From IMG/VR virus record IMGVR_UViG_2513237361_000016: 10,740 nt of DNA; one strand, written 5' to 3'. Position numbers and translations under genes: made by a program. Source of the stretch: a virus. Lineage: Duplodnaviria > Heunggongvirae > Uroviricota > Caudoviricetes. Below are positions 6,525 through 10,740 of the stretch, piece after piece. Position 1 is the stretch's first letter, and each line of letters begins with the position of its first letter. The notes under the pieces are model-generated. The model was not told the DNA's origin. It was given only the letters and a program-made list of their open reading frames with translations, and did not search any database.

Positions 6525-7370
6525 TTACTGATAAGTAACAGAAATATTCAGCGGTGCTTTCCATACAGTTGTTTGCGTTACCGGGTTTGTGAAAGTCAAT
6601 TCGAGAGTTTGACCAGACTTAATCCCCATTGCATAAGTAGCAGATGCACCTCTCCCGGTCATGTCTGAAGACTGAGCGTATGTTGAAGCTGCGATATTGA
6701 TAATCGTCGGATCAAACGCGGCCAGCTGATTCAACATATCTACAGCTTCAAGCCCCCCCATAGATCGAGCAAAGTTTATCGCATTCATCCCATGATTGAT
6801 AGCACCTTCTGCAATCGTTGGGACGCCGCCGTGGAAAATATCATTTGAAGTGTCAGCAATAATAGAAGCAGCTACCCCACGTTGCCGTGCCGCATCAGCC
6901 GCCATACGAGCACCAGCAGCAGTCATGTTCACTTTTGCCTGACCAATCGGAGATGATTGAGCATCAATAACTGGAATCTCTAAATAGCCAGTACCTGCAT
7001 TACCTACATTGTCAAATACCGGAGTGATCTTTCCTTTTTGATAGTCAGAGAACGCAATTTGAGGAATTGCTAAGCTGGTAGCATCAGTTGCCATAAATGC
7101 TTCATTAGTTTTACCCAGCAAAATAGCGGCATTCTGAGCTGCAGTAATCACTAATTTTTTGCCGCCATCAGTCATTTCTTTTACATTACTATCAAAAGCG
7201 CCTAAACTTGTTCCTGTTTTCCAGGCCCACTTCTGCGCAAAGTTATCACCAACAGTAACACTGCCGCCAATATCAACGGAATCGTTAAAGTTACCGTTAG
7301 TCCATGCCATGGCAGAACCAGATACTGCAGCAGAGGCAGCCACAGCCAGTGCAATCAGAGTCTTTTTCAT
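6525..7370 (-). CDS. FaeG-like (K88/F4 fimbrial major subunit family) secreted protein
   Basis: Signal peptide MKKTLIALAVAASAAVSGSAMA. Segments QKWAWK, KLVITAAQNAAILLGKTNEAF, IPQIAFSDY and C-terminal YAMGIKSGQTLELTFTNPVTQTTVWKAPLNISVTYQ align by eye with FaeG as recalled from memory. AAGGAA Shine-Dalgarno precedes ATG at 7370. Confidence 0.65.
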   Translation of the reverse strand: MKKTLIALAVAASAAVSGSAMAWTNGNFNDSVDIGGSVTVGDNFAQKWAWKTGTSLGAFDSNVKEMTDGGKKLVITAAQNAAILLGKTNEAFMATDATSLAIPQIAFSDYQKGKITPVFDNVGNAGTGYLEIPVIDAQSSPIGQAKVNMTAAGARMAADAARQRGVAASIIADTSNDIFHGGVPTIAEGAINHGMNAINFARSMGGLEAVDMLNQLAAFDPTIINIAASTYAQSSDMTGRGASATYAMGIKSGQTLELTFTNPVTQTTVWKAPLNISVTYQ

Positions 7371-7618
7371 AAAATAATTTCCTTGATATTTCATAAATAA
7401 TAAACTGAAATCGGTAATCCTTATTTTTCTGAGTCGTAAAAATCAGCACGTACGAATTCAAACTCTGCCATAAAAGAACATATAAGTAATTTATTAACAT
7501 ATAGATATAGGTTATATTACAAATTGAAAAATTATTGGAGAGCAACAATGAATCAAAATCCATTCTCATTCTATGACTTTCTTGGATATTTAATACCAGG
7601 TGGTTTTTTATCCTATTA

Positions 7619-8413
7619 ATGTATTTCTGTGGTTTGACATTCGATCTAGATATTGTTATTGACTTAAGTGAATTGCTCAGAGGTCAAAGTCAAATCTTTG
7701 GCATTTTGAACTACGCTTCAATAGTTATTATATCTTATATAGCTGGACATTTTATTTCTATCACATCAGCATTTTTTATCGAAAAATACATGAATAAAGA
7801 ATTAGGATATCCTTCCAAATATCTATTTAAAAAATTGATAGATACCTCAGAAAGCATTTGTAGCCCATCATGCGATGAGAGAAGCGCTGATAAAAAAACA
7901 AAAATAAAGAATCGCATAATCAAATGCGTATTATGTCCAATAATACTATGGGATTTTATAACACAAAAACTATGTTATTCTCAATCTCTACCATTTCATT
8001 TAGCTAATACAACATGGTTAATGATCAAAGAAGGTTATGAGAAAAAGTTCATAACAAATCGCCAATTATTACAAGATAAAAACGGACTTGATGATGATCT
8101 CTTCAGATTGGCATATCATTATGTTTATGAGTTTTCAAAACAACATCAAACAAAAATTCAAAACTATGTTGCATTATATGGTTTTTGCAGAAACATATGT
8201 TTAATCTTTATAATTTCATTTTGGGTATCAGTTCCAACCTTTATTTATCGATTATGTACTCATAGTGATTATCTTTATAGTTTACTTTCAATAATGCTTA
8301 GCTTTTTCTTCGTCTATGTTTTCTATGTTGGTTTTGTTAAATTTTATAGAAGATATACTTTAGAAGTATTAATGGCATTTGCTGTACTTCAAAGTAACGA
8401 CACTATTCGTTAA
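7619..8413 (+). CDS. AT-rich multi-pass membrane protein of unknown function
   Basis: 264 aa with several hydrophobic segments (IFGILNYASIVIISYIAGHFISITSAFF, ICLIFIISFWVSVPTFIY, LLSIMLSFFFVYVFYVGFV). Markedly AT-rich compared with neighbours. Start ATG 7619 overlaps (TAATG) the stop of a 23-codon upstream ORF that begins at ATG 7548 with a GGAGAG Shine-Dalgarno. Confidence 0.5.
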   Translation: MYFCGLTFDLDIVIDLSELLRGQSQIFGILNYASIVIISYIAGHFISITSAFFIEKYMNKELGYPSKYLFKKLIDTSESICSPSCDERSADKKTKIKNRIIKCVLCPIILWDFITQKLCYSQSLPFHLANTTWLMIKEGYEKKFITNRQLLQDKNGLDDDLFRLAYHYVYEFSKQHQTKIQNYVALYGFCRNICLIFIISFWVSVPTFIYRLCTHSDYLYSLLSIMLSFFFVYVFYVGFVKFYRRYTLEVLMAFAVLQSNDTIR

Positions 8414-8454: not shown

Positions 8455-8661
8455 ATGCTGAACCTCGATTGTGTTCCTATCTCAACTTATTGCAAAGAAA
8501 CTGGCGAAACTCCTGAAGCAATAAACAAACGTGTACAGCGCGGTGTTTGGCGTGAAGGTGTTCAGGTTTTAAAGGTTGAAGGCGTTAAGGAGAGGTGGAT
8601 TGATCTTAGTGAGGTTGCAAAATGGGCCAGACAAAACTGCTCAAACTACCGCGCGGCGTAA
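8455..8661 (+). CDS. xis: Excisionase-like protein
   Basis: Small basic ORF directly upstream of and overlapping the integrase gene. GGAG sits 7 nt before ATG 8455. Earlier in-frame ATGs at 8416 and 8443 are alternative starts. Confidence 0.5.
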   Translation: MLNLDCVPISTYCKETGETPEAINKRVQRGVWREGVQVLKVEGVKERWIDLSEVAKWARQNCSNYRAA

Positions 8662-9794
8662 CAATCAGGAAACACCGCCAGGGAGAAACGATCAATATAA
8701 CTTTCACCTACAAAGGAGTTAGATGTCGTGAGCCGCTTTCCAATCTGGAAGTAACACCAAAGAACATTAAATACGCCGAGCGTACACTCGGCGAAATCCA
8801 TAATAAGATCGAAAGGGGAACATTCATTTATGCAGAATATTTTCCCCGTTCTGCTCGTTTGAAAATTTTTGGTAATGCTGCTGCAAGCAAAACGGTAAAG
8901 ATGTACCTGGACGAATATCTTGAAATCTGCGAAACAAGAAAACTTTCACCCTCTACGATTGGTGGCTATAAAAAATGCCGTAGTGCGTTAGCCTCACTTC
9001 ACATTTGCCCTGCAAGTGAATTAACACCAGCAACCCTGAAAGCGTGGATTCAAAGCCAGAAAACAACCTTAAAAACCATTCGCAACCAGTTATCTTTCCT
9101 ACGGTCAGCACTTGATGAAGCCGTGACCGATGGGGTACTTCAAATTAACCCCGTATCGTTAGTAACAGCTTCGCGCTACCAAAGTGATAAGTCAGAAGCA
9201 GAAAGCAGCTATGTGGTTGATCCGCTATCACCAGCAGAAGTTGATGCATTACTAGCAGCAGCCGGAAACAAACAATGGGAAAATCTGTTCCGGTTCGCCA
9301 TACATACAGGCCTGCGTAGTTCTGAATTATGTGCCTTACGATGGCATGATATCGACTTTGTTGGAAAAACAGCCCATGTTCAGAGCGCAAGTGTTGTCGG
9401 AGTTATCAAAGGAACAAAGACAAAAGCCGGTACCCGTAAAGTTGAACTGACTGAAGAAGCAATGTTGGCGTTGATAAACCAGAAGCCATTTACATTCATG
9501 AAGGATGCTACTGTCTTTGAAGATCCAAAGACCAATAAACCCTGGGCAAGTGCTGATGCAATTAGGAAAAAAGCATGGGTGCCAACATTGCGAAAAGCAG
9601 GTATTCGTTACAGAAACCCATATCAAACCAGGCATACATTCGCCACCAGCCATATCAGCCGGGGAGCAAACCTGTTTTGGCTTGCGGCTCAAATGGGCCA
9701 TAAAGGGCCTGAAATGTTATTCAGGCACTATGGACAATACTTGAAAGAGTATGATGGGAGGGCAAGTATCAAGGATAAAAAGGCTTTATTTTAA
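8622..9794 (+). CDS. int: Tyrosine site-specific integrase
   Basis: 390 aa. Catalytic-domain residues are visible: Arg in HTGLRSSELCALRW, the His-x-x-Arg motif in RHTFATSH, and the nucleophile Tyr in RHYGQY. N-terminal arm-type DNA-binding region. Confidence 0.85.
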   Translation: MGQTKLLKLPRGVTIRKHRQGETINITFTYKGVRCREPLSNLEVTPKNIKYAERTLGEIHNKIERGTFIYAEYFPRSARLKIFGNAAASKTVKMYLDEYLEICETRKLSPSTIGGYKKCRSALASLHICPASELTPATLKAWIQSQKTTLKTIRNQLSFLRSALDEAVTDGVLQINPVSLVTASRYQSDKSEAESSYVVDPLSPAEVDALLAAAGNKQWENLFRFAIHTGLRSSELCALRWHDIDFVGKTAHVQSASVVGVIKGTKTKAGTRKVELTEEAMLALINQKPFTFMKDATVFEDPKTNKPWASADAIRKKAWVPTLRKAGIRYRNPYQTRHTFATSHISRGANLFWLAAQMGHKGPEMLFRHYGQYLKEYDGRASIKDKKALF

Positions 9795-10403
9795 GTCATT
9801 ATGCCAATCGTCTACTGTTTGAAACCAAATTTTTAACCTTTGCATAAAGGTACGATCCTTTTTGGGAGGGTGGTACCTTTGAAAAGAAGTATGTAACGCT
9901 TCGATAACTCCCATACAAGCATCAATTACTTCTTGTGCTTTAACCGGGCGATCGGCATCTGAAAGCTTGTGAGCGACCTCACAATCCAGAGTTGCTTTCT
10001 CTAGTACAGATGAGAACACCTCGTCAGGTATATACAGTCCTCTGCTTTCCAAAATGCAAATCAGTTTGGAAACTTGTTGAGCTTTAGCCAAGATAGTTAA
10101 CAAGTATGAAACAGAAGCCTTTGTTCTATCCTTTTGCAACCTTAACAATCGATGCTTTGATGCTCTAATTTTAGGTTGAGTTGTCTGACTGAGCCAATAG
10201 TTAGAAGAAATATCAGAAATTTCAATAACTAACTTTGAAATAGCATCAATAATTGATTTCGATTCAGAACGTGTCGCCAGTTTTACAGAATTATTGTACG
10301 CAACTCGCCATCCAATGAAAACTAAGCAGACGCTAACTACTGTGATACACCACGAATACTGTCCTATTTGTGCTACTAATGACATTGGTTCCGTACTGAT
10401 CAA
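9786..10403 (-). CDS. Membrane-anchored protein of unknown function (N-terminal TM helix)
   Basis: 205 aa with a hydrophobic N-terminal segment (YSWCITVVSVCLVFIGW) and a charged, helix-rich remainder. TTG start at 10403 has GAGG 6 nt upstream; alternative ATG at 10385. Its 3' end overlaps the integrase 3' end by 9 nt. Confidence 0.45.
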   Translation of the reverse strand: MISTEPMSLVAQIGQYSWCITVVSVCLVFIGWRVAYNNSVKLATRSESKSIIDAISKLVIEISDISSNYWLSQTTQPKIRASKHRLLRLQKDRTKASVSYLLTILAKAQQVSKLICILESRGLYIPDEVFSSVLEKATLDCEVAHKLSDADRPVKAQEVIDACMGVIEALHTSFQRYHPPKKDRTFMQRLKIWFQTVDDWHNDLK

Positions 10404-10413
10404 CTATCGCCTC

Positions 10414-10740
10414 TTATACTCTTTCTGGTTGTGCTAAATCAATAAATTTATCAATCTGTTCTTTGTAGAACGGAACATCACTTTTTATAATCAAACGTGC
10501 TTTAACGTTGGCTTTAGGTATCCCTTCCTTACGGATGAGACCTCCAAACGCCTCTTCTAAGAAAGAGGAACCAACACCCAGTGCTATACCGCGAAAATCA
10601 ACCACAATCTCCTGTTCAGTACCCTTCAGCGCAGGCACCAAAAACTCTCTACGAAATCTTTCCGCACTGTGTGGGCTATCCGTTGTGTAACGTCCGAAAG
10701 GTGTTCTGGAGAACTCCTTCGCTATGACGATATTTCTCAT
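10414..10740 (-). CDS. Small STAS-like (anti-sigma-antagonist fold, DUF4325-like) protein
   Basis: 108 aa. Pattern IVVDFRGIALGVGSSFLEEAFGGLI resembles STAS-like domains as recalled from memory. ATG falls at the window edge (10740-10738). Stop lies 10 nt before the start of the downstream membrane-protein ORF. Confidence 0.4.
   Translation of the reverse strand: MRNIVIAKEFSRTPFGRYTTDSPHSAERFRREFLVPALKGTEQEIVVDFRGIALGVGSSFLEEAFGGLIRKEGIPKANVKARLIIKSDVPFYKEQIDKFIDLAQPERV

What the first reader, a model, noticed from the sequence alone, without database searches (positions are those of the whole stretch)
9786..10740. AT-rich two-gene cassette beyond the integrase: STAS-like protein plus membrane-anchored protein
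Two co-directional, closely spaced minus-strand genes (108 aa, then 205 aa with one N-terminal TM helix) converge on the integrase, with 9 nt of 3' overlap. The DNA is more AT-rich than the phage core. The int-proximal end of a prophage is a known slot for accessory genes such as exclusion or abortive-infection modules. A small sensor or partner paired with a membrane effector is a common layout for such modules. I do not recognise the pair as a named system.
Basis: partly seen in the sequence, partly recalled or inferred. Interest (0 to 1): 0.7.

Follow-up and report, generated by a model that had tools for sequence, protein, structure and literature searches.

The report
Prophage kinase–STAS–membrane protein operon
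The two genes are the last two-thirds of a conserved three-gene prophage operon (a serine kinase, its small STAS-domain substrate and a single-pass membrane protein) that resembles the recently described VapKSC anti-phage toxin–antitoxin system but carries a new membrane protein where VapKSC has a nuclease toxin.

Summary
Both ORFs exist exactly as described. The 108-aa protein is a true STAS-like (Pfam DUF4325) protein. The 205-aa protein has one N-terminal TM helix followed by a helical domain that is probably cytoplasmic.

The order K→S→T (T being the 205-aa membrane protein) holds in 66 of 66 loci across Gammaproteobacteria. Three distant T homologues also follow a K–S pair.

The operon lies inside an ssrA-integrated prophage, between int and attR. 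Sibling prophages carry other cargo in that slot, including DarT with its NADAR antitoxin.

The closest known system is VapKSC (Chambers et al., EMBO J 2026). There a STAS-GHKL kinase phosphorylates a DUF4325 antitoxin to release a PIN toxin. VapS S48 aligns with our invariant S58. Here a new 1-TM family replaces the PIN toxin.

Most likely mechanism (inferred, not shown): kinase-triggered release of a membrane effector, giving abortive infection. I rate this a new variant of a known kind, of moderate interest.

The parts
10414..10740 (-). Gene S: 108-aa STAS-like (DUF4325) protein, the predicted kinase substrate and antitoxin-like switch
   Evidence: Pfam DUF4325, E 6e-14. VapS, the experimentally characterised antitoxin of VapKSC, belongs to the same Pfam family (E 2.7e-17). 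hhalign of the S family against VapS gives E 1.9e-4 (probability 48%) and aligns S58 with VapS S48. RefSeq names it 'STAS-like domain-containing protein', WP_001244589.1.
10564..10569 (-). Codons for Ser58-Ser59 of S (motif G-S-S-F-L-E-E-A-F-G-G), the predicted phospho-acceptor site
   Evidence: S58 and S59 are invariant in 47 of 47 distinct S sequences. S58 aligns with VapS S48, the residue whose S48A mutation abolished phage protection and whose S48E mutation abolished toxin neutralisation. Codons read directly.
9786..10403 (-). Gene T: 205-aa single-pass membrane protein with an all-helical C-terminal domain (probably cytoplasmic), the predicted effector
   Evidence: No hit in Pfam, NCBIfam or PADLOC; full-length match to phrog_30059, function unknown. 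AlphaFold2 model pLDDT 78.9, with helices 17-73, 83-120, 128-138, 151-177 and 186-204. No significant PDB fold match. The family has 203 cluster representatives at E<=1e-3 among 1.84 billion proteins; the 150 listed are 65-289 aa, too short for an added domain. E47 is conserved in 55 of 56 and T138 in 54 of 56 distinct sequences.
10293..10367 (-). Codons for residues 13-37 of T, the only transmembrane segment
   Evidence: Kyte-Doolittle 19-residue windows exceed 1.6 only at residues 13-37. The N-flank has 0 positive and 1 negative charge; the C-flank has 3 positive and 2 negative, a weak indication of N-out/C-in.
10404..10416 (-). S-T junction: the S stop codon TAA sits inside TAAGAGG (Shine-Dalgarno), followed by 6 nt and the TTG start of T
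   Evidence: Read directly. It indicates translational coupling and supports the 205-aa start.
10740..10740 (-). Window edge: the operon continues beyond it. Gene K (303 aa, STAS + SpoIIAB/RsbW-type kinase) lies at window-equivalent 10745-11656 (L001 16146-17057). The attR repeat lies at window-equivalent 11805-11986.
8622..9794 (+). Prophage tyrosine integrase, convergent with T and overlapping it by 9 nt (context, not part of the operon)
   Evidence: Pfam Arm-DNA-bind_2 plus Phage_integrase. A convergent integrase lies within 25 nt of the T stop codon in 31 of 66 loci, from at least three integrase lineages.

Best explanation
The finding is the distal two-thirds of a three-gene prophage operon, K-S-T. 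K is a STAS-domain plus SpoIIAB/RsbW-type GHKL serine kinase. S is a small DUF4325 STAS protein with an invariant Ser-Ser at the position where anti-sigma antagonists and VapS are phosphorylated. T is a single-pass inner-membrane protein with a helical domain that is probably cytoplasmic. By analogy with VapKSC, unphosphorylated S would bind T and hold it inactive. An infection or DNA-damage signal sensed by K (ssDNA in the precedent) would switch on the kinase. K would phosphorylate S58, phospho-S would let go, and freed T would act at the membrane, most likely by oligomerising and dissipating membrane integrity or potential. That would abort infection by a superinfecting phage. Shown here: gene order and coupling, the folds of K and S, motif conservation, obligate three-way co-occurrence, and prophage cargo-slot context. 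Inferred: S-T binding, phosphorylation, the trigger, T's toxicity and the anti-phage phenotype.
Against: No experiment exists on this cassette. T has no recognisable toxin, pore or enzyme fold, so its activity is a guess. Sequence similarity of K to VapK and of S to VapS is weak (hhalign probabilities 59% and 48%). VapK's proposed ssDNA-contact residue F54 has no clear counterpart: it falls at an alignment gap, and the nearby aromatic at K position 48 is not conserved. PADLOC has no model for any of the three proteins. None of 50,697 deposited phage genomes encodes K (tblastn) or matches the cassette DNA, so the evidence for carriage on phages is from prophages and predicted proviruses only.
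Confidence: 0.55

Rival explanations
1. K, S and T form a partner-switching regulatory module that serves the prophage's own life cycle rather than defence. A DNA-damage-sensing kinase and its STAS partner would control a membrane-anchored regulator that tunes induction, excision, lysis timing or host envelope physiology. Convergent transcription into int might also modulate integrase expression.
For: The precedent kinase responds to DNA damage, which is also the prophage induction signal. T abuts and overlaps a convergent integrase in 31 of 66 loci across three integrase lineages. T's fold resembles generic four-helix sensor or signalling bundles rather than a known toxin. A prophage kinase-phosphatase module controlling both lysogeny and defence is known in Pf phages (PMC11341870, listed).
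Against: The trio also occurs without any adjacent integrase or phage genes: Photobacterium L030/31, and loci next to HsdR or NERD genes in L072 and L074. In Yersinia it lies among tail and pRha genes. No DNA-binding domain or sigma factor is present in the operon. The int-att junction is simply the common place for phage cargo, as the DarT-NADAR siblings show.
Confidence: 0.2
2. T is a constitutive superinfection-exclusion protein at the inner membrane that blocks DNA entry, like Sie or Imm-type proteins. K and S only adjust its activity or level, and no cell killing is involved.
For: T is a single-pass inner-membrane protein encoded by a prophage in a cargo slot. T evolves faster than K and S: 37% identity against 58% and 73% in the same locus pair, as expected for a protein in direct conflict with phage components.
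Against: T's bulk appears to be cytoplasmic, with only about 16 residues outside, which is a poor fit for blocking injection from the periplasmic side. The strict requirement for an active-looking kinase and a phospho-acceptor STAS protein suggests a triggered switch rather than a constitutive block.
Confidence: 0.12
3. One reading: a self-contained two-gene module in which the STAS-like protein is the sensor and the membrane protein is the effector.
For: Only these two genes are visible in the window.
Against: A third gene is translationally coupled 4 nt upstream and is present in 66 of 66 loci. No locus shows S-T without K. STAS proteins of this type are kinase substrates in every characterised precedent.
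Confidence: 0.03

Closest known systems
VapKSC three-gene toxin-antitoxin / anti-phage system (Chambers, Rani, Min, Villa, Corbett, EMBO J 2026; PMC13373217)
   Same: Three-gene operon in the same order. The first protein is STAS + GHKL kinase without an HTH (302 aa against 303 aa). The second is a small DUF4325 STAS protein with a short C-terminal tail (116 aa against 108 aa) and a conserved serine at the start of helix alpha-2 (VapS S48, ours S58). The system is mobile and associated with defence neighbourhoods.
   Different: The third gene is a 1-TM all-helical protein of a previously undescribed family, not a PIN-domain VapC nuclease. K and S are only remote sequence relatives of VapK and VapS (hhalign E about 1e-4). 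The ssDNA-contact residue is not recognisably conserved. The paper and its 69 supplementary files contain no transmembrane variant and none of our accessions. No phenotype is known for our cassette.
CapK/CapS regulators of immune operons (same paper)
   Same: A kinase with STAS+GHKL domains is paired with a STAS-domain substrate encoded immediately downstream, on mobile or defence loci.
   Different: CapK has an N-terminal HTH, and CapS has a C-terminal wHTH and acts as a transcriptional repressor. Our K starts directly with the STAS domain. Our S is 108 aa with no DNA-binding domain. The downstream gene is a single small membrane protein, not a known immune operon.
SpoIIAB-SpoIIAA and RsbW-RsbV partner-switching modules (anti-sigma kinase and anti-sigma antagonist)
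   Different: No sigma factor and no PP2C phosphatase is annotated in the operon or its neighbours. K carries an extra N-terminal STAS domain. The output is a membrane protein. The module is carried on a prophage.
Prophage cargo ('moron') defence slots, for example DarTG in sibling ssrA prophages and the tmRNA hotspot #9 of Hochhauser et al. 2023 (PMC10121019)
   Same: The position is the same: between int and attR of a prophage integrated at ssrA. The content is variable, AT-rich and exchangeable between otherwise near-identical prophages.
   Different: That is a description of location, not of mechanism. DarTG is an ADP-ribosyltransferase toxin-antitoxin system unrelated in sequence.

Membership tests
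Pfam DUF4325 (STAS-like) | Score above the Pfam gathering threshold for PF14213 | tested here: met
   51.9 bits against a cut-off of 23, E 6e-14, residues 25-87.
VapKSC | Three co-oriented, tightly linked genes in the order kinase, STAS protein, effector | tested here: met
   K stop, 4 nt, S; S stop, 10 nt, T. The order is conserved in 66 of 66 loci.
VapKSC | First protein is STAS + GHKL (SpoIIAB/RsbW-like) kinase with intact ATP-binding motifs | tested here: met
VapKSC | [quoted passage not shown] | tested here: met
   S and VapS are both DUF4325. S58 aligns with VapS S48. S58/S59 are invariant in 47 of 47 sequences.
VapKSC | Third protein is a VapC-like PIN-domain nuclease toxin | tested here: not met
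   T has no Pfam, NCBIfam or PADLOC hit. It is predicted to be a 1-TM all-helical protein, with no PIN-like fold match.
VapKSC | K and S are sequence homologues of VapK and VapS | tested here: inconclusive
   hhalign of the K family against VapK: probability 59%, E 9.4e-5, 237 collinear columns. S family against VapS: probability 48%, E 1.9e-4. The shared Pfam family for S supports homology, but K is remote.
VapKSC | Kinase activated by ssDNA through a conserved aromatic residue (VapK F54 / CapK W68) | tested here: inconclusive
   VapK F54 falls at a gap in the profile alignment. K position 48 is aromatic (Y or F) in 36 of 49 sequences, and F58 is conserved in 44 of 49, but equivalence cannot be established without a structural superposition.
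VapKSC | Antitoxin neutralises toxin; the system protects against phage | not testable with these tools
   Requires toxicity-rescue and plaque assays.
CapK/CapS | Kinase has an N-terminal HTH; the STAS partner has a C-terminal wHTH and represses a downstream immune operon | tested here: not met
   The K model begins with the STAS beta-strand at residue 2, with no HTH. S is 108 aa with only DUF4325.
RsbW-RsbV / SpoIIAB-SpoIIAA partner switching | The kinase doubles as an anti-sigma factor with a cognate sigma factor, and a PP2C phosphatase resets the STAS protein | tested here: not met
   No sigma factor or PP2C gene is annotated within 15 kb in UTI89 or in the Pfam-annotated neighbourhoods of L022-L031 and L072-L075.
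Prophage cargo (moron) in a variable int-att slot | Lies inside the att-bounded element; the slot content varies among sibling prophages; base composition is atypical | tested here: met
   A 188-bp ssrA-derived direct repeat brackets the 43-kb element, with the cassette inside it. The int stop overlaps the T stop, leaving no room for an att site between them. Sibling prophages carry DarT-NADAR, ParA plus two genes, or AAA ATPase plus Dam in the slot. GC is 41% against 53% for the phage core.
Known anti-phage systems in PADLOC-DB v2.0.0 | Any of the three proteins matches a PADLOC model | tested here: not met
   No hits at E<=0.1 for S and T or at E<=1 for K.

The most novel reading that the evidence does not exclude
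K-S-T is a new anti-phage abortive-infection system. A STAS-GHKL kinase that senses DNA damage or ssDNA phosphorylates a DUF4325 antitoxin and thereby unleashes a previously unknown family of single-pass membrane effectors. This would show that the kinase-STAS switch is a portable trigger that can be wired to unrelated killers (a nuclease in VapKSC, a membrane protein here). Temperate phages of Enterobacteriaceae would carry it next to their integrase as a weapon against competing phages. Because the trigger is also the prophage induction signal, it might in addition couple induction to membrane events.
Probability: 0.4. Interest if true: 0.65.

Novelty: new variant of a known kind. Interest (0 to 1): 0.55.

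Why it matters
If the model is right, it extends a signalling principle published only in 2026, a GHKL kinase phosphorylating a STAS antitoxin, from one effector (a PIN nuclease) to a second, unrelated one. That would support the view that the K-S pair is a modular trigger for bacterial immunity.

It would also define a new membrane-effector family that currently has no annotation: 203 cluster representatives at E<=1e-3 in 1.84 billion proteins.

It would assign a function to three 'hypothetical' genes present in well-studied uropathogenic, avian-pathogenic and neonatal-meningitis E. coli strains (UTI89, NU14, APEC O1, S88, IHE3034). The same trio occurs in prophages or chromosomes of Salmonella, Klebsiella, Yersinia and other Gammaproteobacteria.

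The system is small (1.9 kb), comes from a genetically tractable host, and has obvious point mutants to test (K N159A; S S58A and S58E; T E47A), so the hypothesis can be tested directly.

Tried and rejected
- **Family libraries.** PADLOC, NCBIfam and Pfam give nothing for T. PADLOC and NCBIfam give nothing for S. PADLOC gives nothing for K (NCBIfam was not run for K), and Pfam gives K only a sub-threshold HATPase_c_2 hit.
- **PHROGs.** The matches are to families of unknown function only.
- **PDB sequence searches.** The K profile hits only RsbW, at E 0.39. The T profile and the S sequence give only chance-level hits, and VapS/CapS entries are not detected by sequence.
- **Foldseek of the T model against the PDB.** There are no hits at E<=0.001. 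The best are generic four-helix bundles (QseE and Tsr sensor domains, designed proteins), which I treat as uninformative.
- **Word-seeded search with a broad T alignment.** It added only 3 distant members. The full HMMER search was needed to see the family.
- **GenBank phage genomes.** Neither the cassette DNA nor the K protein has a match.
- **tRNA/tmRNA search.** ARAGORN finds no gene in the 31-kb UTI89 locus. The att site is only a 3' fragment of ssrA.
- **Promoter scan.** Hit counts are no higher than in shuffled sequence. One candidate ends 33 nt upstream of the K start codon, but it is not evidence on its own.
- **Literature.** DUF4325, the accession numbers and the locus tags give nothing relevant apart from the CapK/VapK paper.
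- **Considered and rejected: CapK/CapS-type transcriptional regulator.** There is no HTH or wHTH.
- **Considered and rejected: classical sigma-factor partner switch.** There is no sigma factor or PP2C phosphatase.
- **Considered and rejected: variable third gene.** My first impression came from 29 hits for T against 163 for K. It was overturned by 66 of 66 synteny; T simply diverges faster.
Full report
**Observation.** One is at 10414-10740 (108 aa, ATG) and the other at 9786-10403 (205 aa, TTG). They are 10 nt apart. The distal one overlaps the stop of the plus-strand integrase (8622-9794) by 9 nt.

The finding region is 39.8% GC. The phage early region in the window is 52.7% and the structural genes of the same prophage in UTI89 are 53.7%. 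The 205-aa protein has a single hydrophobic segment at residues 13-37. The N-flank has no positive charge and the C-flank has three positive against two negative, so the bulk of the protein is probably cytoplasmic.

RefSeq calls a 199-aa product from an internal ATG. The longer TTG start is better supported. It has an AAGAGG Shine-Dalgarno 6 nt upstream, overlapping the stop codon of the preceding gene. Two homologues also lack the internal methionine.

The 108-aa protein scores well above threshold for Pfam DUF4325, 'STAS-like domain' (E 6e-14).

**The window edge hides a third gene.** The window stops on the first base of the STAS gene's start codon. The region is identical, or nearly so, in 125-126 of 5,426 complete E. 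coli genomes. These include UTI89, NU14, APEC O1, S88 and IHE3034. Over int+T+S there are 2 mismatches in 2,119 nt relative to UTI89.

In UTI89 a 303-aa gene (WP_000154254.1, here called K) ends 4 nt upstream of the STAS gene (S). An AGGAGA ribosome-binding site for S lies inside K's last codons. The unit is thus a tightly coupled three-gene operon K-S-T, where T is the 205-aa membrane protein.

**What K is.** Pfam gives only a sub-threshold HATPase_c_2 hit. An alignment of 36-48 homologues shows the motifs of a Bergerat ATP-binding fold to be invariant. These are the N-box (E155...N159), G1 (D201-x-G-x-G) and a G2-like GRGNGSED. They remain invariant in 49 distinct sequences from 66 loci.

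**What T is.** T has no match in Pfam, NCBIfam or PADLOC, and only a PHROG of unknown function. Its model (pLDDT 78.9) is all-helical. The TM helix runs on into a long helix (17-73), followed by four more helices. Foldseek against the PDB gives nothing at E<=0.001.

A full HMMER profile search of 1.84 billion cluster representatives finds 203 members at E<=1e-3. The 150 listed are 65-289 aa, so none is long enough to carry an added domain. E47 and T138 are almost invariant.

**Conservation of the trio.** A scan of species-representative genomes with the K profile gave 15 loci. They span Enterobacterales, Haemophilus, Colwellia, Teredinibacter, Aliidiomarina and uncultured Gammaproteobacteria. 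In all 15, K is followed directly by a DUF4325 gene and then by a small protein with an N-terminal TM helix.

I added contigs encoding K homologues from Salmonella, Klebsiella, Yersinia and Photobacterium and 40 IMG/VR proviruses. Profile HMMs then find K->S->T in 66 of 66 loci.

In the reverse direction, three distant T-family members are each preceded by a 293-375 aa gene and a DUF4325 gene. T diverges faster than K and S (37% against 58% and 73% identity in the same pair of loci). That explains why the word-seeded search found only 29 T relatives against 163 for K.

**Genomic setting.** In UTI89, ssrA lies 43 kb to the left. A 188-bp direct repeat at 90% identity occurs at ssrA and again 149 bp beyond the K start codon. 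It comprises the last 35 nt of ssrA plus 153 nt downstream, including the terminator. Rfam also recognises the ssrA 3' fragment there.

The element between the repeats is a lambdoid prophage with HK97-type head and contractile-tail genes. Because the int and T stop codons overlap, no att site can lie between them. The operon therefore lies inside the prophage, between int and attR.

Sibling prophages have the same yfdPQR-xis-int arm at ssrA but carry different cargo in that slot. It is DarT plus its NADAR antitoxin in two strains, ParA plus two unknown genes in one, and a 577-aa AAA ATPase plus a Dam methylase in another. The tmRNA locus is a documented integration hotspot for defence-carrying mobile elements in E. 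coli (PMC10121019).

Elsewhere, the trio abuts a convergent integrase within 25 nt of the T stop in 31 of 66 loci, involving at least three integrase lineages. In Yersinia it sits among tail and pRha genes. In Photobacterium it forms a small island without phage genes. Two distant loci lie next to a Type I restriction HsdR gene or a NERD-domain gene. It behaves as a self-contained mobile module.

**Closest known system.** A literature search found Chambers et al., EMBO J 2026 (PMC13373217).

- **CapK and CapS.** CapK is an HTH-STAS-GHKL kinase. CapS is a STAS-wHTH repressor. ssDNA activates CapK, which phosphorylates CapS on a conserved serine and so de-represses adjacent immune operons.
- **vapKSC.** This is a three-gene operon. 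VapK is a STAS-GHKL kinase of 302 aa. VapS is a 116-aa STAS protein that acts as antitoxin. VapC is a PIN-nuclease toxin. A crystal structure shows VapS bound to VapC. The S48E mutation abolishes neutralisation. The operon gives about 2-log protection against phage Bas42, and the VapC D28A, VapS S48A and VapK F54A mutations each eliminate it.

I extracted the VapS and VapK sequences from the authors' AlphaFold3 file. VapS is itself a DUF4325 protein (E 2.7e-17). Profile comparison aligns VapS S48 with our S58. S58 and S59 are invariant in all 47 distinct S sequences. VapK aligns collinearly with our K family over both domains, but weakly (probability 59%, E 9.4e-5). In that alignment the N-box, G1 and G2 motifs are matched.

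Our K lacks CapK's HTH and our S lacks CapS's wHTH. The pair is therefore of the VapK/VapS kind. The paper and its 69 supplementary files do not mention transmembrane partners or our accessions. No other paper in the library uses the names VapKSC or VapK; CapK is mentioned in passing in one other relevant preprint, on the CapP+CapH regulators.

**Most likely mechanism.** By analogy, S would bind the cytoplasmic domain of T and hold it inactive. K would be switched on by an infection-associated signal, which is ssDNA or DNA damage in the precedent, and would phosphorylate S58. Phospho-S would then dissociate. Free T would act at the inner membrane, most plausibly by self-association and loss of membrane integrity or potential, which would abort the infection.

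Shown here are the architecture, the folds, the catalytic and acceptor residues, the obligate co-occurrence and the cargo-slot context. Every dynamic step is inferred.

The main weaknesses are these:
- T has no recognisable toxic fold.
- VapK's proposed ssDNA-binding residue has no clear counterpart.
- No complex could be modelled.
- No deposited phage genome carries the operon.

**Rivals.** Three alternatives remain:
- **Regulatory module.** The module might serve the prophage's own induction, excision or lysis. The shared DNA-damage signal and the frequent integrase adjacency support this. The copies that lack an integrase or any phage genes weaken it.
- **Constitutive exclusion.** T might be a constitutive exclusion protein that K and S merely modulate. 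T's apparently cytoplasmic bulk and the strict conservation of an active-looking kinase weaken this.
- **Two-gene sensor-effector unit.** This is refuted as a description of the unit.

**Verdict.** The cassette is best described as a VapKSC-like kinase-STAS switch coupled to a new single-pass membrane effector family, carried as cargo in the int-attR slot of enterobacterial prophages. It fails one defining feature of VapKSC, the PIN toxin. It should therefore not be filed as a VapKSC member but as a new variant of that kind. I rate interest as moderate (0.55). The trigger module is known, and the effector and its mode of action are new and directly testable.

Noticed in passing
window 5585-7394 (-): Two F4/K88-family fimbrial subunit genes: a faeH-like gene (277 aa) and a 289-aa subunit gene (Pfam Fimbrial_K88, E 1e-48 to 1e-64). 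They are about 90% identical to plasmid-borne fae-type operons. They sit in the prophage arm where UTI89 and sibling prophages have yfdP-yfdQ-yfdR. No usher or chaperone gene is in the window, and no complete E. coli genome in the collection has this arrangement.
   Followed up: partly
window 7619-8413 (+): A 264-aa ORF at only 28% GC with several hydrophobic segments. It matches phrog_12528 (function unknown) over its full length and lies just upstream of the xis-like gene and int. UTI89 has a 288-aa version (WP_001075212.1). It is probably another cargo gene.
   Followed up: no
L018 4423-5739; L019 5423-6739; L020 5650-7572; L021 5446-8159: The int-attR slot of sibling ssrA prophages holds DarT plus a NADAR/DUF6977 antitoxin, or ParA plus two hypothetical genes, or a 577-aa AAA ATPase plus a DNA adenine methylase. 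The last two sets are uncharacterised candidates for other cargo systems.
   Followed up: partly
L017 20624-25942 (UTI89, ssrA-proximal end of the same element): A second cargo cluster lies at the other end of the prophage. It contains a LEM-3-like GIY-YIG protein, a 629-aa DUF262 protein, a DinI-like pseudogene and a recombinase remnant.
   Followed up: no
L017 20010-20197 and L001 17206-17387: The att repeat is unusually long: 188 bp at 90% identity, extending 153 nt past ssrA and including its terminator. The attR copy has a 3-nt deletion in the region encoding the tmRNA 3' (CCA) end, reading CCAGC-CAATC where ssrA has CCAGCTCCACCAATC.
   Followed up: partly
PHROG phrog_5816 (profile positions 341-439 of 441): The DUF4325 protein matches the C-terminal quarter of a 441-residue phage protein family. 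This suggests that kinase-STAS fusions, or other large DUF4325 proteins, exist in phages.
   Followed up: no
L028 9623-14939 (Yersinia prophage): In Yersinia the trio lies next to a pRha gene and a giant (>2,700 aa) polyvalent protein with MuF_C/LPD domains, so the prophage context differs from that in E. coli.
   Followed up: no
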